Source: an uncultured Rhodospirillaceae bacterium
GTDB taxonomy: Bacteria > Pseudomonadota > Alphaproteobacteria > UBA11136
Direction of reading: 5' to 3'
DNA: 64,000 nucleotides
Assembly (NCBI GenBank): GCA_964482135.1
Contig: CAYZWF010000005.1
Location: 4,025 to 68,024, forward strand
The notes under the pieces are model-generated. The model searched no databases. It saw only the letters and a program-made list of their open reading frames with translations, and had not been told where the DNA came from. Both the position numbers and the translations under genes were made by a program. Below, one piece after another: positions 39,054-63,712 of the stretch; within the stretch, counting starts at the first letter, position 1, and the number at the start of each line of letters is the position of its first letter.

Positions 39054-39202
39054 AGCTTCACAGAAGGTTTCACAAGCTCACAGCCTTTCACTTTTAAGTG
39101 TTGCATGACCGGGACCACTTGCCCCGCGGCGCCTCATGCTGGTACCATGGATATGCTGCGAGATAACGCCCCGCCATTCTTAGGATTGGAAATTATTCAA
39201 AG

Positions 39203-39784
39203 ATGGGCCGTTCCATAAAAGAGGATATGCCTTCCTATCTCGATGGGGATCTTCTCATCGCCATGCCGCAGATGCGCGACCCCCGCTTTTCCCAGTCCGT
39301 CATCTATATGGTGGCCCATTCCGACGACGGCGCCATGGGGATCGTTCTCAACCAGATGATTGATTCCATCACCTTTCCCGACCTCTTGAAACAGCTCGGC
39401 ATCGCGCTTGAGCGCGAGGAACAGATCATCGGCATCCATTGTGGCGGCCCAGTGGAAAGCGGCCGCGGCTTCGTGCTTCATTCCCCCGACTATCATCAGG
39501 AAGGCACCCTGGAACTTAATTCGGAAATCTGCCTCACTGCCACGGTGGAAATCCTGCGCGCCATCGCCGCCGGACAAGGCCCCCGCCAATGCATGCTGGC
39601 GCTGGGCTATGCGGGATGGGGGCCGGGCCAGCTCGAATCGGAAATCCAGTCCAATGGCTGGCTCCACGCGCCCGCCGACAGCAAGCTGGTGTTCGACGAC
39701 GACCTCTCCAATTTATGGGAGCGGGCAGTGGCCAGCCTGGGCATCGATCCGTCCATGCTTTCCGACGACGCCGGCCACGCCTGA
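39203..39784 (+). CDS. YqgE/AlgH family protein
   Basis: [45 protein letters not shown]. Confidence 0.92.
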
Positions 39785-40129
39785 GACTGGTTTGCCCCGC
39801 CTGAGGCTGGGCCACGCCCGAGGGGTATTCGCAGCCCATTTGAAGGGTGTTCCCACCCCGCTCATTTCAATCTAAGTTATTGAATTAAAACGAATCTGCC
39901 GCCGGAAGGCGTGAAAATGTTAACATTTGTCATCATTTGTTAACATGCCGCGCCAAGGACGGGCGCGCAGCCCAGGCCAGGTGCGGCTTACGCGGAATTG
40001 TGCGGCGTGGAAATTCACCGTTCCAATGTTAACATGTGAGAGGGATATGGGTTGGCAATGGCGCGGCGCACTGCGCCCCTACACATCAAGTTCCACGCCG
40101 GAGAGGCCGTAAAGACATCGTTTTAAAAC

Positions 40130-40438
40130 TTAGGCCTCAACAAGTGCGTCCAAAACCTCTTTGGGTTTTCTTTCCAGGGCGGTTATGAGCACCCGAGCCG
40201 TCCGGTTTGGTTTTCTGCGCTGTTTCTTGCGCTCCCAGGATTGAAGTGTCGAAAGTTTGAAGCCAAACATATCCGCGAATTGTTTCTGTGAGAGCGCAAG
40301 GTTTTCCCTGACGGATTTTACGTCAACGTCTTCCGGAACTTTCAGGGCACGGATATGGACCCGTGAGTCATCTCCATCCAGGTAGGCGGCAATATCGGCG
40401 CGAGCCTCTTTGATTGATTGACGTAATGTACCGGTCAT
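40130..40438 (-). CDS. XRE-family HTH antitoxin (HigA2/YiaG-like)
   Basis: MTGTLRQSIKEA...VDVKSVRENLALSQKQFA..FG..LSTLQSWER; ATGA overlap with toxin stop. Confidence 0.8.
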   Translation of the reverse strand: MTGTLRQSIKEARADIAAYLDGDDSRVHIRALKVPEDVDVKSVRENLALSQKQFADMFGFKLSTLQSWERKKQRRKPNRTARVLITALERKPKEVLDALVEA

Positions 40439-40773
40439 TTGGCCCTCCGTTTCTTGCTGTCCTTGATCAACTTGGTGATTTTCTTCAGTTCCGCCTTCTC
40501 GTTCTCCGTTAAATCCGTTTTTCGATTTTTTGGATAACAAGCCAGGAAAAAAACCTCGCTATCACCGGAATGGAAATAATAAATCAGCCTTGACCGGCCC
40601 CCGGTTCCGAACTGCCGTATCTTTCTGGCGCCGCCGGTTTTAGGGACAACGCCGCCCAACTCCGGATTAAGCGCCAGTTTCGTCTGAACGGCCTCCATAT
40701 GCCGCGCCGTGAACACCCCGCGCATTGCTTTTTTGAAAGCCTTCGGAGTGATGAATATTATTTTACGTCACAT
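40435..40773 (-). pseudogene. RelE/HigB2-like toxin with in-frame TGA at codon 2 (intact ORF only from ATG 40725)
   Basis: ATG TGA CGT AAA ATA ATA TTC ATC ACT CCG AAG GCT TTC in frame with NPELGGVVPKTGGARKIR...RLIYYF...FFLACYPKNRKTDLT. Confidence 0.65.
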
Positions 40774-40790
40774 AGTATGAACTATATGAC
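40767..40790. promoter_or_regulatory. Inverted-repeat operator at the TA promoter
   Basis: GTCACATAGT-N4-ACTATATGAC (9/10 pairing); TATAGT lies 7 nt before ATG 40773 on minus strand. Confidence 0.6.
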
Positions 40791-41031
40791 AATGTCATAC
40801 AATCCCCCAAAAAAAACGAGGCCCATAAGATGGTTACGAGTCATATAGGGCCCAGGAATCCGCAGATTTAGGTATTCCCCCCCGGAAGCGGGCGCACTGC
40901 GCCCCTTGATTAAGGAGTATATTCCTATATTGGCGGAGGAATGTCAAGGAGAACATGGCGGGGGGACGGATCAACCGGGGAGAAGTTTCATGCCGGCGGT
41001 GCCTGTGACATCCGCGCAAGGGATGAAACGG

Positions 41032-41436
41032 CTATTTCCTGTCCCAGCCACTCCAATTCATACTCTTGGGCTTTATTACAGAGCTGGCGTTGATTTCGTT
41101 GAGCGTTTCCGACAGGTGCAGGAGAACCTTCAGCATTACCGGGTCCATCTTGTCCAGCCGCGCCTTGAAAGCTTTCTTGGAAATAGTTACCAGGGAGCAC
41201 TTCTCCGTTGTAACCGCCCCTGCATTGCGGGGAACATCATTGATCAGAGCCAATTCACCGAAGATGCTGCCCTTGCGCAGAGTCGCAATGGTTCGCGGGT
41301 TTTCAGTTCGCGTACCCTTGCGAATTTCCACGCTTCCTTCGCTGATCATATAGGCCGCATCGGGCATATCCCCTTCGTCGAAGACCATCTTGTTGGCCTC
41401 GAGGGTGATTTTCTTGAATGCTTCCGAATGCGGCAA
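41032..41436 (-). CDS. Stand-alone cyclic-nucleotide-binding domain protein
   Basis: VFDEGD..D.AYMISEGSVEI, GSIFGELALI..PRNA. Confidence 0.85.
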   Translation of the reverse strand: MPHSEAFKKITLEANKMVFDEGDMPDAAYMISEGSVEIRKGTRTENPRTIATLRKGSIFGELALINDVPRNAGAVTTEKCSLVTISKKAFKARLDKMDPVMLKVLLHLSETLNEINASSVIKPKSMNWSGWDRK

Positions 41437-41600
41437 CGGTACCCCCCAGTCGTCTTCGTATTAGAGGGGCATAATTCTTAATAATCACTTACCAGAATCA
41501 GCCGAAGACCGCGGCGCCAGTTGCCGCAACCGCGGGGGTTTTTGCGTTCCGATGAATGTCTGCCTTGGGTCAGGGTTCGTTAAGGACGGCGCAGCAGCGG

Positions 41601-41694
41601 CTAGCCGTCGCCGTCGCCCGCCGTATCCGCCTTGTCCAAATCCTCACGCAGCATGGCGAAGGTGTAATGGTCGCACCAGCGGCCGTCGATGCGC
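41601..41694 (-). pseudogene. Displaced copy of the 3' end of the RimJ-like GNAT gene
   Basis: Encodes RIDGRWCDHYTFAMLREDLDKADTAGDGDG*; 41635-41694 matches 42445-42504 at 55/60 nt. Confidence 0.85.
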
Positions 41695-41753
41695 GGATTC
41701 CGGACATGTCTCTCGGATGTGGCCCCCCGGGAGACATCAGATACATTTAATGC

Positions 41754-41782
41754 TTGCCATATTATAGATAACATAATATGTT
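41754..41782 (+). promoter_or_regulatory. higBA promoter/operator
   Basis: TTGCCA-N17-TATGTT overlapped by perfect IR CATATTAT-N7-ATAATATG (41758-41780); ATG 41789 would be leaderless. Confidence 0.65.
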
Positions 41783-41788
41783 GTGCTT

Positions 41789-42064
41789 ATGATAAAGTCC
41801 TTCGCCACGGGCCGCACCGAAAGGCTTTTTTCAACGGGGAAGCCCATTAAGGGCGTGGATACCGACATTGCTCTGAAGCGGCTGGACGCGCTGCGCGCCG
41901 CCAAAAGTCTACAAGACATATCGCCGCTGAAAAGCGTCGGACTGCATAAGCTGGGCGGGGACCGCAAGGGTCAATGGGCCATGAACGTCAACGGACCATG
42001 GAGGGTTTGTTTCCGGTTTCGCGCCGGCGACGCCTATGACGTGGAAATTACCGATTATCACTAA
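41789..42064 (+). CDS. higB: HigB toxin (RelE/ParE superfamily)
   Basis: MIKSF, LHKLGGDRKGQWAMNVNGPWRVCFRF, VEITDYH. Confidence 0.92.
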   Translation: MIKSFATGRTERLFSTGKPIKGVDTDIALKRLDALRAAKSLQDISPLKSVGLHKLGGDRKGQWAMNVNGPWRVCFRFRAGDAYDVEITDYH

Positions 42065-42099
42065 GCTCCAACTATCGGCAGGCCAAGGAGGGCCGTCAC

Positions 42100-42390
42100 A
42101 TGACACGAATTAAAACACATCCCGGAAGCATTCTGCGGGAGGAACTGGAGGCGCGGAATCTTTCCGCGAACGCCCTGGCCCGCGCATTGCGCGTTCCACC
42201 AAATAGAATAACGGAGATACTCAACCAGGATCGCGGCATTTCACCGGATACCGCCCTACGTTTTTCGAGATATTTTGAAACCAGCGCCGAATTCTGGATG
42301 AATCTGCAAACCGCCCATGATTTGTCCGTTACCGAACAGGAGCATGGAGAAAAAATAGCCGCCGACGTAGCCGGTGCGACGGCGGCCTAG
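42100..42390 (+). CDS. higA: HigA antitoxin
   Basis: HPGSILREEL, LARAL.VPPNRITEI, ISPDTALRFSRYF.TSAEFWMNLQ. Confidence 0.93.
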   Translation: MTRIKTHPGSILREELEARNLSANALARALRVPPNRITEILNQDRGISPDTALRFSRYFETSAEFWMNLQTAHDLSVTEQEHGEKIAADVAGATAA

Positions 42391-54420: not shown

Positions 54421-56562
54421 ATGCCTGATGGTACTACCGCAACAACCGCGTTTGGGGCCTGTCCCCATGACTGTCCCGACACCTGCGCCATGCTGTTCGA
54501 TATCGAGGATGGAAAAGTCACCGGCGTAAGTGGCAGCAGAGAACACCCCATGACCAACGGCAGTCTCTGCGTCAAGCTGAAGGATTATGAAAAACGCATG
54601 TATCATCCCGATCGCCTGTTGCATCCCATGCGCCGTACCGGGCCCAAGGGCAGCAAGCAGTTCGAACGCATTACCTGGGATGAGGCGCTGGATGAAATCG
54701 CCGGCAAATGGAAGGCCATCATAGAAGAGCATGGGCCCCAGGCCATCGTGCCCTATAGCTATCTGGGCCATCAGGGACTGGTTCACGGCCTCAATGGCGG
54801 CGACGCCTTCTTTAACAGACTGGGCGCCACGGTATGTGAACGCACCTTTTGCGGCGAAGGCTCCTGTACTGCCTGGTTGACCACGGTTGGCCCCACCGCG
54901 GGTCTCGACGTGGAGAGTTATATCCACTCGAAATATATCGTCATCTGGGCCTGTAACAGCGTCAGCACCAACCTGCATCACTGGGCCATTATCCAGGATG
55001 CCAGAAAAAAAGGCGCCAAGGTGGTGGTTATCGATGCCTATAAATCACGCACCGCCAAAGAAGCCGATTGGCATATTTGTCCAAAACCCGGAACCGACGG
55101 CGCTCTGGCCATGGCCCTCATCAACAGCATTATCGAACAGGGTCTGGTGGATAAGGAATACGTGGATAATTACACCGTCGGTTATGAGGAACTGGCGGAG
55201 CGCGCCAAGGATCGCACCCCGGAATGGGCATCAGAGATTACCGGCGTCGCCGCCGAGGACATCCGCCAGCTGGCCAAGGATCTGGCCACCGAGCAACCCG
55301 CCGCCATCCGCATGGGCGTGGCGCTGGAACGCCATTTCGGTGGCGGTCAAACCATCCGTGTGGTGACCTGTATCCCGGGACTGACCGGCGCATGGCGGCA
55401 TATCGGCGGGGGAGTTACACAATTTCCGGTTTGGGAACATCCCTACAAATTCGATGTGATATCTCGACCGGATCTTATTCCCGAAGGCACGCGGGTCATT
55501 AACGCCCTGCAGATAGGCCGCGCGCTGACCGGTGAAATGGATCTCGATATTCCCATCAAATCGATGATGTTCTGGAATGCAAATCCGGTCACCCAGGCGC
55601 CGGAAACGGACAAGATCGTCGAAGGCTTGATGAATGAAGATATGTTCACGGTCTGCGCCGAGCATTTCATCAGCGATACCGCGTCTTACGCGGATATCCT
55701 TTTGCCCGCCTCCATGGGCGCCGAGATGGAAGATATGGTCCTGTCGTGGGGTCACTTGTATCTCACCTATAACGCCAAGAGCGTTGAGTCCCCCGGAGAA
55801 GCCATACCCAACAATGAAATCTTCCAGCGTCTGGCCGCGCGCATGGGCTTTGAAGACGAACAGTTCAAATGGTCGGATTCCCAATGTCTGGAAAACTATG
55901 TTGATTGGGAGTCGCCCGCATGTGACGGCATCGATCTCGATTATATGCGTGAGAACGGTTTTGCCCGTTTGACCGTGGGAACCCCGGACGACCGTTGTCC
56001 CCATAAGGAAGGCAACTTCCCGACCCCATCCGGCAAATGTGAATTCAAGCTGGATGGCGCGGTTAACTTCGTCGCCGGACCCTTCCGTCAAATGTATGAG
56101 GGGTTTCAACCGGGTGAACCGCTGGATGACCTGCCCGATTATGTTCCCTCGAGGGAAACGCCGGAAACCAACCCGGAACTGGCGAAGAAATACCCCTTGA
56201 ATATTGTCTCACCCAAGAGCCACGGTTTCTTGAATTCCTGTTACGCCAATATGGATCACAAGATTAAAGGCCAGGGCGAACAATTCGTTTTGATTAACGC
56301 GGCGGACGCAGACCCCAGAGGCATAAAAGAGGGCGATAAAGTTCGCGTCTTTAATGACCGCGGCGGTTTTGTAGGTGATGCCAAGGTCACCGACGACGTC
56401 AATGCGGGGGTTATCGTCGCCACCCTGGGCTATTGGCGGCAATTAAACGAGGGGACGGTTAATTCCATCAGTTCCGCCGAGTTCGTCAATATGGGACATG
56501 CACCGTCCTTTTCCGACAATCTGGTGGAGGTGGGACTCACCAACCGCGGACCGGGAGACTGA
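54421..56562 (+). CDS. Molybdopterin (Mo-bisPGD) oxidoreductase, uncharacterised subfamily, cytoplasmic
   Basis: CPHDCPDTC...LCVK Fe-S motif, HPDRLLHPMRR, RITWDEALDEI, C-terminal molydop_binding domain; no Tat signal. Confidence 0.9.
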   Translation: MPDGTTATTAFGACPHDCPDTCAMLFDIEDGKVTGVSGSREHPMTNGSLCVKLKDYEKRMYHPDRLLHPMRRTGPKGSKQFERITWDEALDEIAGKWKAIIEEHGPQAIVPYSYLGHQGLVHGLNGGDAFFNRLGATVCERTFCGEGSCTAWLTTVGPTAGLDVESYIHSKYIVIWACNSVSTNLHHWAIIQDARKKGAKVVVIDAYKSRTAKEADWHICPKPGTDGALAMALINSIIEQGLVDKEYVDNYTVGYEELAERAKDRTPEWASEITGVAAEDIRQLAKDLATEQPAAIRMGVALERHFGGGQTIRVVTCIPGLTGAWRHIGGGVTQFPVWEHPYKFDVISRPDLIPEGTRVINALQIGRALTGEMDLDIPIKSMMFWNANPVTQAPETDKIVEGLMNEDMFTVCAEHFISDTASYADILLPASMGAEMEDMVLSWGHLYLTYNAKSVESPGEAIPNNEIFQRLAARMGFEDEQFKWSDSQCLENYVDWESPACDGIDLDYMRENGFARLTVGTPDDRCPHKEGNFPTPSGKCEFKLDGAVNFVAGPFRQMYEGFQPGEPLDDLPDYVPSRETPETNPELAKKYPLNIVSPKSHGFLNSCYANMDHKIKGQGEQFVLINAADADPRGIKEGDKVRVFNDRGGFVGDAKVTDDVNAGVIVATLGYWRQLNEGTVNSISSAEFVNMGHAPSFSDNLVEVGLTNRGPGD

Positions 56563-56918: not shown

Positions 56919-57452
56919 ATGAATTACAAAAAAATCTTTGTCGGCACGGTGTGCGCCCTGTCCGCCCTGTCCGCCATAAACGCATATGCGGAGGGGAATC
57001 CCGAATATGTCAAATTCCCCACGGGTTACGAGACATCCTTTGCCAACTACACGACCATGAACCGTGACGGTAAAGAGCAAGTGGCAAAGATGTATGCCAA
57101 CGACGCCGCCATATCCAGCTACAAAAAGGGGCAGACGGCGGCTCCGGGTTCCGTTGTCGTCATGGAAGTCTATAAGCCCAAAAAAGACGCCGATGGTAAA
57201 TCCATTGTGGGCAGTGACGGCATCTACGAAATTGGCAAGCTCGCCGCGGTCGCCGTCATGGAACGGAGGGACGCATGGGAGGCCGCGTATTCACCGGATC
57301 ACAGGCTGGGCAATTGGGGATTCGCCATATACAAACCCGATGGCACCCCAAAACCCAATAAGCTGGCTTGCGTCGAATGTCATTCACCGCTGGAAGATGA
57401 GGATTTTATCTTCTCCTATCAACAGCTTATGGATTACGTGAAGTCCAATTAA
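56919..57452 (+). CDS. Cytochrome P460-superfamily protein (c'-beta-like)
   Basis: Signal peptide, FP.GY, GSVVVMEV, GNWGFA, single C-terminal CVECH, DFIFS. Confidence 0.8.
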   Translation: MNYKKIFVGTVCALSALSAINAYAEGNPEYVKFPTGYETSFANYTTMNRDGKEQVAKMYANDAAISSYKKGQTAAPGSVVVMEVYKPKKDADGKSIVGSDGIYEIGKLAAVAVMERRDAWEAAYSPDHRLGNWGFAIYKPDGTPKPNKLACVECHSPLEDEDFIFSYQQLMDYVKSN

Positions 57453-57583: not shown

Positions 57584-58177
57584 TCAATTCTTGCGCAGGA
57601 CCACCGCTCCTTGTGCGAGGCTGGCATCGAGGTCGGTTTCGGGAGCTTCCTTGTGGACCAGGTTCTGGTGACAGTCGATGCAGGTCGCCCCTTCCGTTTC
57701 CATCTTCTTATGGGCCTTTTTCGCCGATTTGCCAGCCCCGCGCGGGTTCTTGTGGCAGCCGCGGCAGGTGATGCTGTCCCAGTCCTTCATCAGCATCCGC
57801 GCCTTGTGGGCCATTCTCAGGCGGTGCTTGTTGAATGCCTTCTTGGTCGAATAGTCGTCGACCAGTTCGTGGTAGATGGCGCGGGTCCCGTCGATTACGT
57901 GGGTAGCGAGCGCAAGGTGGAAGTTGGCGAGACCCTTGGGTATATGACAATCACTGCATTCCGGCTGGGCCCCCATGGCGCCGCGGTAGTGGGTGGATTT
58001 CTTGAATTCCTCGGCCGGGTAGGTCATGGAATGGCAGCCGACGCAAAAGCCGGTGCTTGAAACCGCCGCCTCGCCGCCCAGGACGATAGCCAGCAAGGCC
58101 AGCATGCCACCGGCGCCCCAAAGCAGCGCGCCCAGATTGCCGGTAATGTATCGCCAGATTTTCGTCATCCTTGGCAT
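57584..58177 (-). CDS. cycB: Tetraheme membrane cytochrome cM552 (NapC/NirT family)
   Basis: N-terminal TM; CVGCH, CSDCH, CRGCH, CIDCH; last gene of the hao cluster. Confidence 0.9.
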   Translation of the reverse strand: MPRMTKIWRYITGNLGALLWGAGGMLALLAIVLGGEAAVSSTGFCVGCHSMTYPAEEFKKSTHYRGAMGAQPECSDCHIPKGLANFHLALATHVIDGTRAIYHELVDDYSTKKAFNKHRLRMAHKARMLMKDWDSITCRGCHKNPRGAGKSAKKAHKKMETEGATCIDCHQNLVHKEAPETDLDASLAQGAVVLRKN

Positions 58178-58189
58178 CGGCCTGTAACG

Positions 58190-58894
58190 CTATTCCTTGG
58201 GAATGGGTTTCGCTTTTTCCTGGAATTCATCGTGAAACGGCGGCGTCGGCGGCCCGGTGAAGGTCCCTTCCAGCTTGAAATGCCCGTGCATCGCCTTTTC
58301 ATTTCGCACCGCCTTTTCGAAATCGAAGGTGTATTTAGGGTCAACCTTGGGCGTGAAGGGGGTGTATGGCTTCTTGGCGCCGGACCACCCCGACCCCTCG
58401 TAGTTGAGGTGACAGCCCTTACAGCGCTCGATGAACTCGAATTCCTCCCCCGCCTCCACCAGCACCTGGCGGGGAGTGGTCGTGCCCTCGTTCTCGAAAG
58501 CGATGCCGGCCTTGCGGTGGACGAGCCGGTAATCGAGGCCGGGGCCGTGGCAGGATTCGCACCCTACCCCCACCAAATATTCGCTGGGGTCTTCCATGTC
58601 GTAACCGCCCTCATGGCTGAAACCGGTGGTGTGGCAGGCCACGCATTTTTCGTCCTCTGTGTATTCTTTGTCCGGGTCCAGCCCCGCCTTTTTCTTGGCC
58701 TCGGCCTTTTCACCGGCGGCCAGCGACTTCAGCGCCTTGGCATGCGCCGTCTGTTGCCAGGATTCGAACTCGCTTTTGTGGCAGCCGCCGCATTTCTTGC
58801 GGCCCTCGAACTCAAACTCTTCGGCAGTGGCGGCAAATGTCCCGAAAGCAAGAATGCAGACGGCAAATGCGCTCAGGAAGACAGCCCGGGACAT
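58190..58894 (-). CDS. cycA: Tetraheme cytochrome c554
   Basis: FEGRKKCGGCH, CVACH, GVGCESCHGPG, CKGCHLNYEGS.W.GAK.PYTPFTP.VD.KYTF, closely matching Nitrosomonas c554. Confidence 0.93.
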   Translation of the reverse strand: MSRAVFLSAFAVCILAFGTFAATAEEFEFEGRKKCGGCHKSEFESWQQTAHAKALKSLAAGEKAEAKKKAGLDPDKEYTEDEKCVACHTTGFSHEGGYDMEDPSEYLVGVGCESCHGPGLDYRLVHRKAGIAFENEGTTTPRQVLVEAGEEFEFIERCKGCHLNYEGSGWSGAKKPYTPFTPKVDPKYTFDFEKAVRNEKAMHGHFKLEGTFTGPPTPPFHDEFQEKAKPIPKE

Positions 58895-58989
58895 CTTTCG
58901 TACCTATGAATTGGAAAACCTATCCACGACTTCTGGCCCTATCGTAGGCGCATCCGATGACCCTTCGTTAGTGCCAGGAACTAATATTT

Positions 58990-60045
58990 TTATAGGGCCG
59001 GAGGCGTTGTTTCGGTCTCGGCCTCTTGCTCCGCCGGCGGCACCCTGTAGACCCAGAAGTCGCCGTGCTGGTAGACCAGTTCGATCTCCGTAAGCTCCAT
59101 GGGCCGCGAGTTGGTAAACGGCAATGCCTGGGCAAGCAGAGTCCGGGAAGAGGCCTCGTCGGTCAGGAAATAGACCCGGACCACCGTCTTGCCCAGCCGT
59201 TGCGTGGTGTAGTTCTCGTAGCCCTCTTCTTTCAGCCATTTCTTGATGGAGGAGGCCATTCCGTGGGCGTCCTCGCCCTTGGCGAAGTCCTTGAATCCAA
59301 TACCGAAGCGTTCCGGATACAAGGCCCCGACCTTGTAAGTGTCCTGTACCGAGAGGACCAGGAAGGACTCGCGGCCACCGACCAGGGCGCGTAATTTTTC
59401 GGCCGCCGCCGCCTGGCGGTCGGTAAGCAGGGCCTCGGTGAATTGTTCGAACAGGACTTCGCCGGATTCTCCCTTGTTGAGATTCCAGAAGCTGCGCTCC
59501 ACGGCCTTGATGGGCTTTTGATACCTGTTCCACGATTCGGGCAACAGAACGGGTTGCGCCAGGTGGCGGTCGAAAAGAACGTCGATCCCCGCCAAAAGCT
59601 TCAAGCGGCGGGATATGTCCCACCAGCCGATCACCGGCGCCCCCTCGGGCGCGTGTTCGCGGATGGCCTCGGCAAGGACCGCCGTCTCGGAAACATCGCT
59701 GGCGGCGTTGATCACCGGCTCGGCGAGATAGTTTCGCCAATCGAGGAGGACAGGCTCGCCTTTATTCCGGGCGGCGGTGTGAAAGACGGCGATGGGTTTG
59801 TCTATTTGATCCACCCGCAGTTCGTATTTGCGGATAACCAGGTTCGGACTGTCCACGCCGCCTTCTCCCGCCAGCCCCAGATCAGGGAAAGCCTCGACGC
59901 CTCCTTCTTCGACCATGGTGTAGACGTAAGGCGCTTTCTGGGGCGTCGGCTGGAAAATCGACCACGCCACCCATCCGCCCAAGAAGAACCCTCCTGACAC
60001 CAGGAGAATTCCGGCTGTCAGGAGGGTTTTCCGATTGCCCGTCAT
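58990..60045 (-). CDS. haoB: Hydroxylamine oxidation protein HaoB
   Basis: N-terminal TM, PVLLDWRN..AEP, GWWDISRRL.LLAG, YGDF-like tail; lies between haoA and cycA. Confidence 0.82.
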   Translation of the reverse strand: MTGNRKTLLTAGILLVSGGFFLGGWVAWSIFQPTPQKAPYVYTMVEEGGVEAFPDLGLAGEGGVDSPNLVIRKYELRVDQIDKPIAVFHTAARNKGEPVLLDWRNYLAEPVINAASDVSETAVLAEAIREHAPEGAPVIGWWDISRRLKLLAGIDVLFDRHLAQPVLLPESWNRYQKPIKAVERSFWNLNKGESGEVLFEQFTEALLTDRQAAAAEKLRALVGGRESFLVLSVQDTYKVGALYPERFGIGFKDFAKGEDAHGMASSIKKWLKEEGYENYTTQRLGKTVVRVYFLTDEASSRTLLAQALPFTNSRPMELTEIELVYQHGDFWVYRVPPAEQEAETETTPPAL

Positions 60046-60101
60046 GGGTCAATCACAGAGGGAGATATGGATTGCCGGGCACCAAGAAGGACGCGGCGTG
60101 C

Positions 60102-61829
60102 TCATCTGATATCCTCTCCCATGTCTTCTTTTTTGCGTCCGCGGCGCCACCCCCATAGAGCGAGAGAGCCGACCAGCAGCATGCCGCCGCCGCCGACGCC
60201 AAGGGACGCCTTCTTAAAGAAGGTGTCGAGTTTGGGCAGATCGCTGCGCTTGCCTCCTTCGAGTTTAGCGATCCTGTCTTTCAACGACGCCATCTCGCGA
60301 ATCCGGGTGTTTTCGTCCTGGATTTCGGCATAGGCCCCCATTAACGGCGCCCAACCATTCGAGTAGGTGTAGTTGCCCGGATTGAAGTGGGCGAGACCCT
60401 TGTAGAGCTTGATCAGGTCGTGTTCCCACATCTCCGTGTAGACGCGGTCCATATGCGTCGGGTTGTTGTCCTTGGCCCAGAACAGACCGTAGAAGCCGCC
60501 GGGGGCGTCTTTTTCAGGCGCTGGAGGCGGTGGGCGGTTGGTTTTCTGGCCAACCATCAGACCGTCGGCATAGAGCTGTTTGACCACCTTTCCGGCCTCT
60601 TGTTCCACCTTGAGCCCTTGTATGGAGCCATTGTCGATTTGGCTGAGCCTGGCCCTGGTAAAGCTTTCGGAGTGACAGTTGGTACAGGTCTTGACCCAGG
60701 CTTCCTGGCGCGACGTGAACCATTTGTGATCCAGGTTGTCGGCGATCGCCGGCTGTGGGTTAAAGCCCCAGCGCACCTTGCGCACCAGGTTGTGTCCGAA
60801 CTTGCCCTTGTTCTCCATGTGACAGAAGGCGCAGGTCGGTGAGGTCTGGCCGCCCTTGTCGATGGCGTCCTTGAGGGGCACTTCCCAGTTCCACTCGTCG
60901 CCGAGCAACTGATAAATGGTGCCGTGTTTGGACATCATGTAGTTCTCGAACTCGTTATGATCGACGCCGTTGTGGCAAATGCCGCAGGCCTGGGGCTTGC
61001 GCGATTCGGCGGCTGAGAACTGGTGCCGGGTGTGGCAGGTGTCGCACTTGTTCTGGTTGATGTGACACTCGGTGCAGCCTTCGGCGACATCCCGTTGTTC
61101 CATGGCGGCCCAGATCGCCGTTTCCACGTTGGCCTTGTAGTCGAGGGCGTGGGACGGACGGCCCTTCGGCCACTGGTCCTGGGGCCAGTTCAGGGTGTCG
61201 CGTTCGGATTCGCGCTCGGCGAACTCCTGGAGATGGCAGGTACCGCAGACGTCGGCGGTGGGCATGCGCAAATCCTTGCGGTGATCGCCTTTCTCGGCCA
61301 AGACTTCGACGTGGCAATCCATGCACATGACTTCATTCAGCTGTTCCTTGGCGCCGAGCTTGCCAAGGGAGCGCAGGTTGTCTTCGACTTCTTTTAATTT
61401 TTTCTTCTTGTAGGCTCTGGGGTCGCCGTCGGACAGGTTGCGGATAGCGTTGATGTCGGCGTGCACGCTCTTCTTCCATGCGACGACGGCGCCGGGTGTT
61501 TCCTTTTCGTGGCAGCTTATGCATTCGGAACGTGTCGAGACGTCCTTCACCGATGTGGGTGGCTTGTAGAAGCTCAGCGGATCGAGATAGGAACTCATGG
61601 GGATCGGCTCCCAGTACTTTGCGAGAGTCCCCTTTCCGGCTCCCTGTTCGGGATCACGGTAACGTTTCTTCAGCGCATTATAGAGATCCTTCGGCGGCGC
61701 CGATTTCGACACCCCAAGGGCGTCGTAAAGCTCGTTGGGAATATCGGCCACGGCCTCTCCGGCCAAGCCGGCCATCCACGAAATCGCCACGGCCACAGCC
61801 GTCGTCCTCGTCCAAAACAGGATCCGCAT
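60102..61829 (-). CDS. haoA: Octaheme hydroxylamine oxidoreductase (575 aa)
   Basis: GGAGG RBS before ATG 61829; signal peptide; 8 CxxCH; GAGKG...YWEPI, WP.GRPSHALDY.AN, CHNGVDHN, HFNPGNYTYSNGW; C-terminal TM anchor. Confidence 0.95.
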   Translation of the reverse strand: MRILFWTRTTAVAVAISWMAGLAGEAVADIPNELYDALGVSKSAPPKDLYNALKKRYRDPEQGAGKGTLAKYWEPIPMSSYLDPLSFYKPPTSVKDVSTRSECISCHEKETPGAVVAWKKSVHADINAIRNLSDGDPRAYKKKKLKEVEDNLRSLGKLGAKEQLNEVMCMDCHVEVLAEKGDHRKDLRMPTADVCGTCHLQEFAERESERDTLNWPQDQWPKGRPSHALDYKANVETAIWAAMEQRDVAEGCTECHINQNKCDTCHTRHQFSAAESRKPQACGICHNGVDHNEFENYMMSKHGTIYQLLGDEWNWEVPLKDAIDKGGQTSPTCAFCHMENKGKFGHNLVRKVRWGFNPQPAIADNLDHKWFTSRQEAWVKTCTNCHSESFTRARLSQIDNGSIQGLKVEQEAGKVVKQLYADGLMVGQKTNRPPPPAPEKDAPGGFYGLFWAKDNNPTHMDRVYTEMWEHDLIKLYKGLAHFNPGNYTYSNGWAPLMGAYAEIQDENTRIREMASLKDRIAKLEGGKRSDLPKLDTFFKKASLGVGGGGMLLVGSLALWGWRRGRKKEDMGEDIR

Positions 61830-62019
61830 AAGTACCTCCCCACTCCCGCCGCAAAAACCGCGGACGGGAAAAAATTTAAGCGAGCATGAATGAGTTTCAG
61901 AAAAACCGCGAACGGGCGTAAGGACCAGCTTCTGAAAAAGGCATGGGCCACTGGCTCCATGGGTTTCATGGCGCCGATGAATCCATAACCAAGGCCTTGA
62001 GAAGAATGATGTTTGGTAA

Positions 62020-62090
62020 ACTGGCCCAAAGTATATTTCAACCACTGGCACTATCCTGGCGGCCAATAACGGATATAATGTTGGGCCAGT
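62020..62090. promoter_or_regulatory. Candidate MocR operator in the hao/MocR divergent intergenic region
   Basis: ACTGGCCCAA (62020-62029) and TTGGGCCAGT (62081-62090) form a perfect 10-bp IR; extra ACTGGC at 62044 and 61950. Confidence 0.6.
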
Positions 62091-62143
62091 CGCTGAATTA
62101 TTTGCTGACTGGGAGCTACAGGAGACCCGGTTGAAGGGGGGGG

Positions 62144-63712
62144 GTGTCCGTTTCCATGCAATTGCCACTGAAAGTCTACCACGGCAAAAAACAGCCACTC
62201 CAGACGCAGATATTCGATCAAATCCGCGGATTAATCCTGGAGGGCCGGCTGAAGCCGGGCACGCCGATTCCCGCCACCCGCGCCCTGGCCGAACAGCTGG
62301 GCGTTTCGCGCAACACGGTCACCCTTGCTTACGAACAACTGATCATCGAAGGCTATCTTCAGACCCGCAGGGCGGTCGGCACCTTCGTCAGTTTCGATTT
62401 ACCGGCGTCGTCCCTGTTATCGGACAGCGGTGAGGCCGTATCCCATGACAATTCCGAACGGCTGATCGACCGCCAACCCGTGCGCTTCCGGGGCACTCCC
62501 CATCCGGTCGTCAACCGCAACCGTCACAACCTCGCGGTCGATTTCTGGGTGGGACGGCCCGATGCCAGGTCTTTCCCTTCAAAGACTTGGCGGCGCCTGC
62601 TCAATCGGGAGCTTACCCACCCCAGCTCCAGCCTCACGGAATATGGGGAGCCGGGAGGGCTGCCCGCCCTGCGCCAGGCCATAGCCGATCATCTGGGGCC
62701 TGCCCGCGGCATTTCCACGACACCGGAACAGGTGATTATCGTCGCCGGTTGCCAGGAGGCGCTGAACGTCGCGGCGCGTCTTTTCGTCGGCCAGGATACT
62801 CCGGTGGTCGTCGAAAACCCCTGCTACCAAGGGGCCTCGAACCTCATGGAGAGTTACGGCGCCAGGCTGATCCCGGTTGCGGTCGACGGTGAGGGCCTGG
62901 ACGTCGCCCAGCTGCCCCAGAAACCGGTCAGCCTTGCCTATGTGACACCGTCACACCAATACCCCATGGGGGCGACACTTTCCCTGGAACGCCGGTTACG
63001 TTTGTTGGATTGGGCGTGGAAAACCGGCGCCTATATCATCGAGGATGACTATGACAGCGATTTCCGATACGACGGCTCGCCGTTAACCGCGCTGAAGGGC
63101 TTGGATAAGCGCGGCTGTGTCATTTACATGGGGACTTTTTCAAAGTCGGTTGGCGCCGGTATCCGGATCGGCTATCTGGTGGTTCCCCGCGAACTCGTCG
63201 AGCCGGCGACCACCGTCAAGGCCCTGCTGGATAACGGTCATCCCTGGCTCGACCAGGCGGTGCTCGCCGATTTCATTTCAAGCGGCACCTTCTCCAACCA
63301 TCTCCGGCGAATCCGGTACACCTATAAACTGCGCCGCGACTGTCTCATTGAGGCCTTGGGCAGGCACTTTGGAGACGTGGCGTTGTCCGGCGTTATGGGA
63401 GGCATGCATCTGGTTTGGCATCTGCCGCGGAGCTTCCCGAAGGCAAAAAAACTCCAGGAGATGGCGCTGGATCGCGGTATCGGCATCTATTCGCTGCAGG
63501 ACGGAGCCGCCAGCGTCTTCGGAAGCAATAACTTTGACGAGCGGGCAATCATGCTCGGCTATTCGTCGACCTCGGAAAAGCAAATCCGCGAAGGCATAGC
63601 CCGAATCGCCAAGGTCGTTCCCGTGAAGCGGAGGGCCCAGCCGTCCGGTGCCGACAATTTATTTTTCTCAAGCCGCAAAAAACCCGGACCGGCCCTCAAC
63701 GCCAGACAATAA
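62144..63712 (+). CDS. MocR/GabR-family PLP-dependent transcriptional regulator (start 62144 or 62156)
   Basis: GntR wHTH (LAEQLGVSRNTVTLAYEQL..EGY) plus aminotransferase-like domain (YVTPSHQYP.G, IIEDDYDSDF, YMGTFSKS). Confidence 0.93.
   Translation: MSVSMQLPLKVYHGKKQPLQTQIFDQIRGLILEGRLKPGTPIPATRALAEQLGVSRNTVTLAYEQLIIEGYLQTRRAVGTFVSFDLPASSLLSDSGEAVSHDNSERLIDRQPVRFRGTPHPVVNRNRHNLAVDFWVGRPDARSFPSKTWRRLLNRELTHPSSSLTEYGEPGGLPALRQAIADHLGPARGISTTPEQVIIVAGCQEALNVAARLFVGQDTPVVVENPCYQGASNLMESYGARLIPVAVDGEGLDVAQLPQKPVSLAYVTPSHQYPMGATLSLERRLRLLDWAWKTGAYIIEDDYDSDFRYDGSPLTALKGLDKRGCVIYMGTFSKSVGAGIRIGYLVVPRELVEPATTVKALLDNGHPWLDQAVLADFISSGTFSNHLRRIRYTYKLRRDCLIEALGRHFGDVALSGVMGGMHLVWHLPRSFPKAKKLQEMALDRGIGIYSLQDGAASVFGSNNFDERAIMLGYSSTSEKQIREGIARIAKVVPVKRRAQPSGADNLFFSSRKKPGPALNARQ

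What the first reader, a model, noticed from the sequence alone, without database searches (positions are those of the whole stretch)
57584..61829. Complete nitrifier-type haoA-haoB-cycA-cycB module in a heterotroph-like alphaproteobacterium
Seen: the exact gene order and heme counts (8, 0, 4, 4 CxxCH) of the hydroxylamine:ubiquinone redox module, with c554 and HAO recognisably close to the Nitrosomonas proteins. Surrounding core genes are alphaproteobacterial, an aa3 oxidase operon is about 5 kb away, and no amo is in the window. Known: the full module typifies beta/gamma ammonia oxidisers and comammox Nitrospira; an alphaproteobacterial precedent is Ruegeria pomeroyi. Inference: this organism may gain energy from hydroxylamine (own or cross-fed), represent an unrecognised ammonia/hydroxylamine oxidiser, or run the module for nitrite reduction.
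Basis: partly seen in the sequence, partly recalled or inferred. Interest (0 to 1): 0.9.

Follow-up and report, generated by a model that had tools for sequence, protein, structure and literature searches.

The report
Nitrifier-type hydroxylamine oxidation genes in alphaproteobacterium
An uncultured marine alphaproteobacterium from oxygen-poor water carries, in its chromosome, the complete and intact gene set that ammonia-oxidising bacteria use to burn hydroxylamine for energy, plus its regulator. This suggests a hydroxylamine-consuming lifestyle outside the known nitrifiers, but it is not the first such case.

Summary
On the minus strand, 57584-61829 encodes haoA (8 CxxCH), haoB (0), cycA/c554 (4) and cycB/cM552 (4). 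All four are intact and align full-length with the Nitrosomonas/Nitrosococcus proteins.

HAO keeps the cross-linking Tyr, the catalytic Asp-His pair and the C-terminal anchor, so it is the oxidative type.

The join is not chimeric. Six independent assemblies from oxygen-deficient-water samples are 99.85-99.99% identical across both junctions. The same contig carries rpoD, dnaG, carAB and an alphaproteobacterial cox operon.

- a divergent MocR/GntR PLP-dependent regulator, which accompanies hao in Nitrosococcus, Nitrosovibrio, Ruegeria and many MAGs;
- an adjacent "P460" gene, which is really a cytochrome c'-beta-Met without the Lys cross-link.

Ruegeria pomeroyi is a precedent for haoAB plus the regulator only; it has no c554.

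Full modules also occur in other alphaproteobacterial MAGs (Rhodospirillales, Hyphomicrobiales, Ferrovibrionaceae) and in marine gammaproteobacterial MAGs. One is published for the denitrifier Ca. Desulfobacillus.

No amo lies within about 82 kb, and the rest of the genome could not be searched.

Most likely this is a laterally acquired hydroxylamine:quinone redox module used for energy gain or detoxification. I rate it a new member of a known kind, of moderate interest.

The parts
60102..61829 (-). haoA: octaheme hydroxylamine oxidoreductase precursor, 575 aa. It has a signal peptide and 8 CxxCH motifs. The heme-4 (P460) motif is CTECH at residues 252-256. Asp290-His291 is the catalytic pair, Tyr489 is the cross-linking tyrosine, and there is a C-terminal hydrophobic anchor.
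   Evidence: It aligns full-length with N. europaea HAO (E 1e-225, 57% identity). A GGAGG Shine-Dalgarno sequence precedes the ATG at 61829.
58990..60045 (-). haoB: hydroxylamine oxidation protein HaoB, 351 aa, with an N-terminal membrane anchor and no heme motif.
   Evidence: (TIGR04392, 328 bits against a cut-off of 200), (PF27869 HaoB_nitrify).
58190..58894 (-). cycA: tetraheme cytochrome c554 precursor, 234 aa, with a signal peptide and 4 CxxCH motifs. Every His of N. europaea c554 is conserved in the alignment.
   Evidence: 60% identity to 1BVB, E 6.5e-83. NF043010 scores 340 bits, below its equivalog cut-off of 400.
57584..58177 (-). cycB: membrane-anchored tetraheme cytochrome cM552 of the NapC/NirT family, 197 aa (or 194 aa from the ATG at 58168). 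It has one N-terminal transmembrane helix and 4 CxxCH motifs. It is the presumed quinone reductase.
   Evidence: 66-70% identity to Nitrosospira and Nitrosovibrio cycB. No solved relative was found.
62156..63712 (+). MocR/GabR-type regulator with a GntR winged-helix domain fused to a PLP-aminotransferase-like domain. It is transcribed divergently from haoA and is the probable regulator of the module. The ORF is listed from a GTG at 62144; the likely start is the ATG at 62156 (518 aa).
   Evidence: GntR plus Aminotran_1_2 domains; the PLP Lys (FSKS) and the phosphate Arg are conserved relative to PdxR 7PQ9 and GabR 4N0B. A homologue at 45-67% identity lies within 10 kb of hao in 29 of 60 loci. 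These include Nitrosococcus halophilus (63%), Nitrosovibrio Nv4 and R. pomeroyi.
61830..62155 (.). Divergent haoA/MocR control region with repeated TGGGCCA(S)T-type boxes at 61944-61956, 62020-62029, 62042-62054 and 62081-62094. These are candidate operator sites.
   Evidence: repeats, including a perfect 10-nt inverted repeat. Related TGGNNCCA boxes are about 20-fold enriched in the equivalent intergenic regions of other loci (15 observed against 0.7 expected). They were found again in L071 and L073, which were not used for discovery. The motif was chosen post hoc, and binding has not been tested.
56919..57452 (+). Cytochrome c'-beta-Met, 177 aa: P460 fold, one CxxCH, signal peptide, convergent with cycB. 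It is a probable accessory protein that binds NO or peroxide. It is not a cytochrome P460.
   Evidence: PF16694; 57% identity to the N. europaea protein 7S5O, E 1e-58. Met is at the Lys cross-link position, Ala at the distal-carboxylate position, and the Arg cap is conserved, when mapped onto Table 2 of PMC11928373. It is not linked to hao in the other non-AOB loci. Nitrosococcus has a P460-family gene beside its hao-linked regulator.

Best explanation
The locus is a laterally acquired, chromosomally fixed hydroxylamine:ubiquinone redox module of the Nitrosococcus type. Its host is an uncultured marine alphaproteobacterium (Rhodospirillales in the broad sense) from oxygen-deficient water.

Proposed mechanism:
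1. Periplasmic trimeric HAO, with its Tyr-heme P460 cofactor, oxidises NH2OH to NO or nitrite.
2. Electrons pass to soluble tetraheme c554, then to membrane-anchored cM552, and into the quinone pool.
3. The respiratory chain takes them from there, so NH2OH is both removed and used as a supplementary electron donor.
4. Expression is probably set by the divergently transcribed PLP-dependent MocR regulator acting on repeated boxes in the shared intergenic region.
5. The neighbouring cytochrome c'-beta-Met probably handles NO or peroxide side-products.

Shown: gene content, intactness, the diagnostic residues, phylogenetic placement, host identity, non-chimerism, and conservation of the regulator linkage.

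Inferred: catalytic direction, electron route, the regulator's target and ligand, and the source of NH2OH. That source would be neighbours such as ammonia-oxidising archaea, methanotrophs or anammox bacteria, or an unknown endogenous route.
For: - All four genes are intact with the right heme counts and topology signals.
- HAO is 57% identical to N. europaea HAO over its full length and keeps Tyr489 (= Tyr467), Asp290-His291 (= Asp267-His268) and the C-terminal anchor. The Tyr cross-link is the accepted mark of oxidative HAOs (PMC12758564).
- In a neighbour-joining tree, the window HAO sits in a clade with 100% bootstrap support. That clade holds marine metagenome proteins and gammaproteobacterial MAGs that also carry cycAB. 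It lies inside the AOB-type radiation: 84% support with beta-AOB and 96% with Nitrosococcus added.
- cycAB, the link to quinone, is present here but absent from most haoAB-only non-nitrifiers. cycAB is used in the literature as the marker of energy-conserving ammonia oxidisers (PMC11135946).
- The locus has the same architecture as Nitrosococcus, regulator included (PMC3772326).
- The module's composition matches the host: GC 0.594, tetranucleotide z = 1.0.
- The junctions are identical in six independent assemblies.
Against: - No amo lies within about 82 kb, so no source of NH2OH is visible.
- There are no expression or activity data for this organism.
- In the one published non-AOB carrier of a full cluster, only haoAB were transcribed, and the authors considered the reverse reaction (PMC8402940).
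- c554 scores below NCBIfam's equivalog cut-off.
- No sigma-70-like promoter was found, and terminator-like sites do not exceed background.
- HAO can run reductively in vitro with strong reductants (my own knowledge of the literature).
Confidence: 0.65

Rival explanations
1. The organism is a true ammonia oxidiser, the first alphaproteobacterial AOB. Its amoCAB, or a divergent copper monooxygenase, would lie elsewhere in the genome and feed NH2OH to this module.
For: The module has the full AOB inventory, including cycAB, the Nitrosococcus-type regulator and a P460-superfamily cytochrome. In AOB, amo and hao are usually unlinked, so absence of amo from the window is weak evidence.
Against: No amo lies within about 82 kb. 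The flanks of every other non-canonical full-module locus show heterotroph-type genes and no amo. A survey of xmoA-containing genomes that scored cycAB recognised only gamma-AOB, beta-AOB and comammox as oxidisers (PMC11135946). NCBI already held alphaproteobacterial MAGs with cycAB by then (L061, L068).
Confidence: 0.08
2. The module is purely protective. It removes toxic NH2OH or NO made by neighbours, or by the cell's own nitrogen metabolism, and energy conservation is irrelevant.
For: The haoAB-plus-regulator cassette without cycAB is widespread in heterotrophs: Rhodobacteraceae, Burkholderiales, Thioalbus-like bacteria and R. pomeroyi. That fits a detoxification role. A neighbouring c'-beta-Met points to handling of reactive nitrogen or oxygen species.
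Against: Keeping c554 and a quinone-reducing cM552 intact, at 60-70% identity to the AOB proteins, argues that the electrons are delivered to the respiratory chain. Detoxification and energy gain are not mutually exclusive.
Confidence: 0.17
3. The module runs in reverse under anoxia. Quinol-derived electrons would pass through cM552 and c554 to HAO and reduce nitrite or NO to NH2OH or ammonium.
For: The habitat is oxygen-deficient water. The reverse reaction was proposed for Ca. Desulfobacillus. In related loci, hao sits beside nirS (L063) or a NirK-like copper oxidase (L065).
Against: The Tyr cross-link residue is conserved. Characterised reductive HAOs lack it (PMC12758564). The HAO groups with AOB enzymes, not with reductive clades.
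Confidence: 0.07
4. The physiological substrate is hydrazine leaked by anammox bacteria, oxidised to N2, rather than hydroxylamine.
For: [quoted passage not shown] Anammox bacteria share this habitat (my own knowledge).
Against: There is no specific sequence evidence. Identity to hydrazine dehydrogenase is low (NF052343 at 130 bits against a cut-off of 900; 6HIF E 3e-34).
Confidence: 0.03

Closest known systems
Nitrosococcus hao locus: N. oceani Noc0890-0895 (cytL, GntR, haoA, haoB, cycA, cycB) and N. halophilus Nc4 (L073)
   Same: The gene order haoA-haoB-cycA-cycB is the same. So is the divergently transcribed GntR/MocR regulator, which is 63% identical to the window's. There is a P460-superfamily cytochrome next door. 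HAO is 60-63% identical, and both have Phe-Asn at the N. europaea Tyr334 position.
   Different: The Nitrosococcus host is a gammaproteobacterial obligate ammonia oxidiser with amoCAB. Its neighbouring cytochrome is named P460 (CytL) in N. oceani (PMC3772326); I did not check its residues. Here it is a c'-beta-Met on the other side of the operon. No amo is seen here.
Betaproteobacterial AOB haoAB-cycAB clusters (Nitrosomonas europaea, Nitrosospira, Nitrosovibrio), with solved HAO (4FAS, 6M0P) and c554 (1BVB) structures
   Same: All four proteins are homologous over their full length: HAO 57-61%, HaoB 38-43%, c554 60-66%, cM552 66-70%. The heme motifs, Asp-His pair, cross-link Tyr and C-terminal anchor match.
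   Different: AOB carry two or three copies, and only one copy has the MocR gene beside it (Nitrosovibrio Nv4). Here there is a single copy in a non-AOB lineage.
Ca. Desulfobacillus denitrificans haoA-haoB-c554-cytochrome c cluster (Okubo and Takami 2021, PMC8402940)
   Same: It is a published case of the whole cluster in a bacterium that is not an ammonia oxidiser. Its HAO groups with AOB enzymes and is 59% identical to the window's.
   Different: It is a betaproteobacterial (Rhodocyclales) denitrifier from an anammox reactor. Its HAO falls in the beta-AOB clade, not the marine clade of the window. Only haoAB were expressed there.
Ruegeria (Silicibacter) pomeroyi DSS-3 megaplasmid hao cluster
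   Same: The host is alphaproteobacterial. It has haoA (59% identical), haoB and the same MocR-type regulator (47% identical).
   Different: It has no cycA: tblastn of c554 against all 72,556 plasmids found nothing. No cM552-like gene is annotated in the cluster. Instead the cluster continues with ccmF-dsbE-ccmH-TPR-hemA-ccmE. It is plasmid-borne, and its HAO lies outside the AOB-type clade that holds the window's.
DnfR, the MocR-like regulator of the dirammox dnf cluster in Alcaligenes (Xu et al. 2022, cited in PMC12575085)
   Same: It is a MocR-family PLP-type regulator governing genes of hydroxylamine metabolism. This is a functional parallel for the hao-linked regulator.
   Different: Its target genes are unrelated (dnfABC, not hao). 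Its ligand was still unknown in 2024. I had no DnfR sequence to compare, so homology beyond family level is untested.
Anammox HOX/HDH and reductive octaheme HAOs (HAOr, epsilon-type, ONR)
   Same: They share the octaheme core fold (6H5L, 4N4J, 6HIF at E 1e-34 to 1e-61).
   Different: They are much more distant. Reductive members lack the cross-link Tyr that the window HAO has, and none is followed by haoB-cycA-cycB.

Membership tests
Hydroxylamine:ubiquinone redox module (haoA-haoB-cycA-cycB) | Octaheme HAO with eight c-type heme-binding motifs | tested here: met
   8 CxxCH. PF13447, E 2.7e-150. Full-length match to 6M0P and 4FAS.
Hydroxylamine:ubiquinone redox module (haoA-haoB-cycA-cycB) | Cross-linking tyrosine that makes heme 4 a P460 cofactor (oxidative type), plus the distal Asp-His pair | tested here: met
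   Tyr489 aligns with N. europaea Tyr467, and Asp290-His291 with Asp267-His268. The covalent bond itself cannot be tested in silico.
Hydroxylamine:ubiquinone redox module (haoA-haoB-cycA-cycB) | haoB immediately downstream of haoA | tested here: met
   TIGR04392, 328 bits against a cut-off of 200. There is a 56-nt gap, on the same strand.
Hydroxylamine:ubiquinone redox module (haoA-haoB-cycA-cycB) | Tetraheme cytochrome c554 (cycA) | tested here: met
   4 CxxCH. 60% identity and E 6.5e-83 to 1BVB over 206 residues, with all His conserved. Caveat: NF043010 scores 340 bits, below the equivalog cut-off of 400.
Hydroxylamine:ubiquinone redox module (haoA-haoB-cycA-cycB) | Membrane-anchored tetraheme NapC/NirT-type cM552 (cycB) directly after cycA | tested here: met
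   PF03264, E 3e-45. 4 CxxCH. Transmembrane helix at residues 13-37. 66-70% identity to Nitrosospira cycB. 12-nt gap after cycA.
Hydroxylamine:ubiquinone redox module (haoA-haoB-cycA-cycB) | NH2OH oxidation coupled to quinone reduction | not testable with these tools
   This needs enzyme or physiological assays.
Ammonia-oxidising bacterium | amoCAB (copper membrane monooxygenase) in the genome | tested here: inconclusive
   None was found in the 64-kb window, the 10 kb to its left or the 7.8 kb to its right.
Cytochrome P460 (ORF 56919-57452) | Heme-lysine cross-link residue and distal carboxylate, both needed for NH2OH oxidation | tested here: not met
   Met is at the Lys position and Ala at the carboxylate position, exactly as in N. 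europaea cytochrome c'-beta-Met 7S5O, to which it is 57% identical. It is filed as c'-beta-Met.
MocR/GabR subfamily of GntR regulators (ORF 62156-63712) | N-terminal GntR winged helix, a fold-type-I aminotransferase-like domain, and a PLP-binding Lys | tested here: met
   PF00392 plus PF00155. The FSKS Lys and the phosphate Arg align with GabR Lys312 and Arg319 and with PdxR 7PQ9. They are conserved in all 22 hao-linked homologues.
Reductive octaheme HAO-like enzymes (HAOr, epsilon-HAO, ONR) | Absence of the cross-link tyrosine; not followed by haoB-cycAB | tested here: not met
   The Tyr is present, haoB-cycAB follow, and the HAO groups with AOB HAOs.

The most novel reading that the evidence does not exclude
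This alphaproteobacterium and the allied marine MAG populations with the same cassette would form an unrecognised guild in oxygen-deficient waters. They would conserve energy from hydroxylamine released by ammonia-oxidising archaea, methanotrophs or anammox bacteria, and so shape NO and N2O yields. The conserved hao-linked MocR protein would be a direct hydroxylamine sensor, detecting NH2OH through reaction with its PLP cofactor (oxime formation). The same sensor would then control hao in canonical nitrifiers such as Nitrosococcus.
Probability: 0.2. Interest if true: 0.8.

Novelty: new member of a known kind. Interest (0 to 1): 0.55.

Why it matters
cycAB is treated as the signature of energy-conserving bacterial ammonia oxidisers (PMC11135946). 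I recall that c554 was once reported as lacking from non-nitrifiers (Bergmann et al. 2005, from memory).

Here the full module, with its Nitrosococcus-type regulator, is fixed in the chromosome of an abundant alphaproteobacterial population from oxygen-deficient water. It recurs in at least three other alphaproteobacterial MAG lineages and in marine gammaproteobacterial MAGs.

Three consequences follow:
- hao or cycA reads in marine metagenomes cannot be equated with AOB.
- Hydroxylamine may be a traded intermediate with its own consumers, which is relevant to NO and N2O budgets in oxygen-minimum zones.
- The hao-linked MocR regulator offers a concrete, testable handle on how hao is controlled, including in classical nitrifiers, where that control is poorly understood.

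Tried and rejected
- Chimeric join: rejected. Six independent assemblies (JGI and ENA samples) match the window at 99.85-99.99% across both edges of the module. The same 143-kb scaffold carries rpoD, dnaG and carAB.
- Foreign composition: the module itself is host-like (z = 1.0). Only the adjacent Mo-oxidoreductase plus c'-beta segment is deviant (GC 0.543, z = 4.5).
- 'Cytochrome P460' next to the module: rejected in favour of c'-beta-Met.
- Functional link to the aa3 operon: no support. CoxA and CoxB are not near hao in any other locus, and tldD plus an unrelated Mo-enzyme gene lie in between.
- R. pomeroyi as a full-module precedent: rejected.
- N. europaea Tyr334 as a discriminator: it is Phe-Asn here but also in Nitrosococcus, so it is uninformative.
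- Promoter and terminator scan: no sigma-70-like site, and terminator-like sites are at background.
- Rfam: only two tRNAs in the window.
- GTDB species-representative scan: no HAO closer than 74%, so this species, or this locus, is not among the representatives.
- cM552 against the PDB: no hit.
- Literature: 10 searches found no paper describing haoAB-cycAB in Alphaproteobacteria or a MocR-hao link. Term matching is literal and the library is partial, so absence is weak evidence.
- Searching the organism's whole genome for amo, nir, nor or RuBisCO was not possible with the tools.

Full report
**1. Observation**

The CxxCH counts are 8, 0, 4 and 4, with no variant heme motifs.

Pfam and NCBIfam assign them as follows:
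- HAO: PF13447, E 2.7e-150.
- HaoB: TIGR04392, 328 bits, cut-off 200.
- c554: PF13435, and NF043010 at 340 bits, below its cut-off of 400.
- cM552: PF03264 (NapC/NirT), E 3e-45.

HAO aligns end to end with N. europaea HAO (6M0P, 4FAS; E about 1e-225) at 57% identity. c554 is 60% identical to 1BVB. Every gene has the expected N-terminal signal or anchor, and haoA has a GGAGG ribosome-binding site. The longer ORF reaching 62198 is an artefact of the ORF rule.

**2. Oxidative or reductive HAO?**

- Tyr489 of the precursor aligns with N. europaea Tyr467, the residue that cross-links to heme 4.
- Asp290-His291 align with Asp267-His268.
- The heme-4 motif and the C-terminal hydrophobic tail are present.
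- The Tyr is the accepted signature of oxidative HAOs, and reductive ones lack it (PMC12758564).
- The N. europaea Tyr334 position is Phe-Asn here, but also in Nitrosococcus, so it does not discriminate.

I built a neighbour-joining tree of 52 HAOs with 200 bootstrap replicates. The window protein falls in a clade with 100% support. That clade also holds unnamed marine metagenome proteins (71-79% identity) and the MAGs labelled Arenicellales and Acidiferrobacteraceae. It joins a group containing beta-AOB at 84% support, and Nitrosococcus at 96%. The haoAB-only clades of Rhodobacteraceae and Burkholderiales lie outside. The tree is a distance tree, midpoint-rooted, with no distant outgroup.

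**3. Host and integrity**

- The exact HAO protein is indexed in 44 blocks of the contig collection.
- Six independent assemblies from JGI and ENA samples match the window at 99.85-99.99% nucleotide identity across both sides of the module.
- One of these samples, SAMN10231904, is a water-column sample from an oxygen-minimum or oxygen-deficient zone (PMC12220078).
- The same 143-kb scaffold carries carAB, dnaG and rpoD 10 kb to the left of the window.
- All named relatives of that RpoD are MAG proteins labelled Alphaproteobacteria, Rhodospirillaceae, Rhodospirillales or Magnetovibrio, at 67-85% identity.
- The window itself holds CcrM, RNase HII, MutY, DciA, SMC, DsbD, a split F0 operon with b and b' subunits, ETF-QO, and the operon coxB-coxA-ctaB-ctaG-coxC-DUF983-surf1-thrC-M16.
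- The module's GC content (0.594) and tetranucleotide profile (z = 1.0) are host-like.

The module is therefore a genuine, settled part of an alphaproteobacterial chromosome. The species, or at least this locus, is missing from the GTDB r232 representatives; the best HAO match there is 74%.

**4.

(a) *A regulator.* A MocR/GabR-type regulator (62156-63712) is transcribed divergently from haoA. It has a GntR domain and an aminotransferase-like domain with the PLP Lys intact.

Homologues at 45-67% identity lie within 10 kb of hao in 29 of 60 loci examined. They occur across alpha-, beta- and gammaproteobacteria:
- Nitrosococcus halophilus: 63% identity, same divergent arrangement.
- Nitrosovibrio Nv4: beside one of its three hao copies.
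- R. pomeroyi.

N. oceani lists a 'GntR' gene, Noc0891, between cytL and haoA (PMC3772326).

The shared intergenic region of the window has four TGGGCCA(S)T-type boxes. TGGNNCCA boxes are about 20-fold enriched in the equivalent regions elsewhere (15 observed against 0.7 expected). They reappeared in two loci not used to find them. The motif choice was post hoc, so these figures overstate significance.

All 22 hao-linked homologues keep the PLP Lys and the phosphate Arg. All have Gly at the GabR Arg207 position, and none has Arg at the Arg430 position. From memory, those two arginines hold the GABA carboxylate. If so, the ligand here is not a GABA-like acid.

(b) *A misnamed neighbour.* The 'P460' ORF at 56919-57452 is 57% identical to N. 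europaea cytochrome c'-beta-Met (7S5O). It has Met at the cross-link position and Ala at the carboxylate position. That class does not oxidise NH2OH.

**5. Comparison with what is known**

- R. pomeroyi's megaplasmid has haoA-haoB-MocR-ccmF-dsbE-ccmH-TPR-hemA-ccmE. No c554 was found on any of 72,556 plasmids. It is therefore a precedent for haoAB only.
- A full cluster in a non-nitrifier has been published for Ca. Desulfobacillus denitrificans, where only haoAB were expressed (PMC8402940).
- Full modules with the regulator also occur in:
  - a Rhodospirillales MAG, GCA_019455065.1 (L061);
  - a Hyphomicrobiales MAG, GCA_020682745.1 (L068);
  - a 792-kb contig named 'Ferrovibrionaceae' (L072);
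  - a 5.25-Mb contig with heterotroph-type flanks and its own ccmFGH genes (L067);
  - the marine gammaproteobacterial MAGs (L007, L008, L057);
  - the closest relative of all (78% HAO identity), which lies beside phage-type integrases (L070, L071).

- None of these flanks shows amo.
- c554 is a small family, with 361 clusters at E <= 1e-20.
- The mismatch between gene tree and host taxonomy, together with the integrase context, indicates lateral transfer of a regulator-plus-module cassette.

**6. Mechanism**

The best-supported reading is an oxidative hydroxylamine:quinone module. HAO oxidises NH2OH. Electrons then go through c554 and cM552 to the quinone pool and on to the respiratory chain. 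The MocR protein probably sets expression.

Retention of an intact cycAB, which most haoAB-only heterotrophs lack, argues that the electrons are conserved rather than merely discarded.

The source of NH2OH is unknown. No amo lies within about 82 kb, but amo and hao are normally unlinked. A genuine alphaproteobacterial ammonia oxidiser therefore cannot be excluded; I give it about 8%. Detoxification only, reverse operation and hydrazine oxidation are the other rivals. The nearby aa3 operon is ordinary core gene order and carries no functional implication.

**7. Verdict**

This is a real, intact, oxidative-type HURM with a Nitrosococcus-like architecture in an uncultured alphaproteobacterium from oxygen-deficient water.

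It is a new member of a known kind, not a new system. A published non-AOB precedent exists, and several unremarked MAG carriers are already in public databases.

Interest is moderate, for three reasons:
- it undermines the use of cycAB and hao as markers of AOB;
- it points to hydroxylamine consumers in oxygen-minimum zones;
- it exposes a conserved, unstudied hao-linked PLP-type regulator.

Physiology and the presence or absence of amo remain undecided.

Noticed in passing
window 62156-63712, and loci L007-L073: A MocR/GntR PLP-type regulator travels with hao in alpha-, beta- and gammaproteobacteria. These include the canonical nitrifiers Nitrosococcus and Nitrosovibrio, where it sits beside one hao copy per genome. 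TGGNNCCA-type boxes lie in the shared intergenic region. All homologues keep the PLP Lys but lack the positions I recall as GabR's carboxylate-binding arginines. Hydroxylamine reacts readily with PLP, so a direct sensor is conceivable.
   Followed up: partly
window 56919-57452: The P460-fold gene convergent with cycB is a cytochrome c'-beta-Met orthologue, not a cytochrome P460. It is 57% identical to N. europaea 7S5O, with Met and Ala at the two catalytic-signature positions. In one sample (L005) this gene carries an indel and is called at 173 aa instead of 177.
   Followed up: yes
window 54421-56562: A cytoplasmic molybdopterin oxidoreductase (713 aa; 4Fe-4S motif; no Tat signal). Its best structural relative by sequence is acetylene hydratase (E 7e-54, N-terminal part only), and no NCBIfam equivalog fits. 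Together with the c'-beta gene it forms a low-GC segment (0.543, tetranucleotide z = 4.5). It is absent from every other hao locus. Function unknown.
   Followed up: partly
L069 (R. pomeroyi megaplasmid NC_006569, 204747-222303); also L067 and L065: In several non-nitrifiers the hao cassette is accompanied by its own cytochrome c maturation genes (ccmF, ccmG/dsbE, ccmH, a TPR protein, ccmE). In R. pomeroyi it also has hemA. This suggests a dedicated supply line for heme attachment.
   Followed up: no
L007 and L008: Two MAGs labelled as different orders (Arenicellales and Acidiferrobacteraceae) share this locus and its flanks at 94.9% nucleotide identity over 8.6 kb. Either the taxonomy or binning is inconsistent, or the transfer was very recent.
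   Followed up: partly
L070 634-5570: The closest relative of the window's module (HAO 78%, MocR 67%) lies next to two phage-type integrase genes and an excisionase-like HTH gene. This suggests the cassette can ride on an integrative element.
   Followed up: no
L015, L018, L033, L054: A clade of alphaproteobacterial haoAB-only HAOs (MAGs labelled Rhodospirillaceae and Alphaproteobacteria) has Ala in place of the catalytic Asp of the Asp-His pair (IAH or AAH instead of VDH), yet keeps the cross-link Tyr. These may have altered chemistry.
   Followed up: no
L063 12984-14732; L065 14248-17006: In close relatives of the window HAO, haoAB is followed directly by a cytochrome cd1 nitrite reductase (nirS) instead of cycAB. 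In another relative, haoAB-cycAB is followed by SCO1 and a NirK-like two-domain copper oxidase.
   Followed up: no
window 39000-42100: A low-GC patch (0.53-0.54) holds RelE-like and HigB-like toxin genes and a cNMP-binding protein. It is probably a small accessory island unrelated to the hao locus.
   Followed up: no
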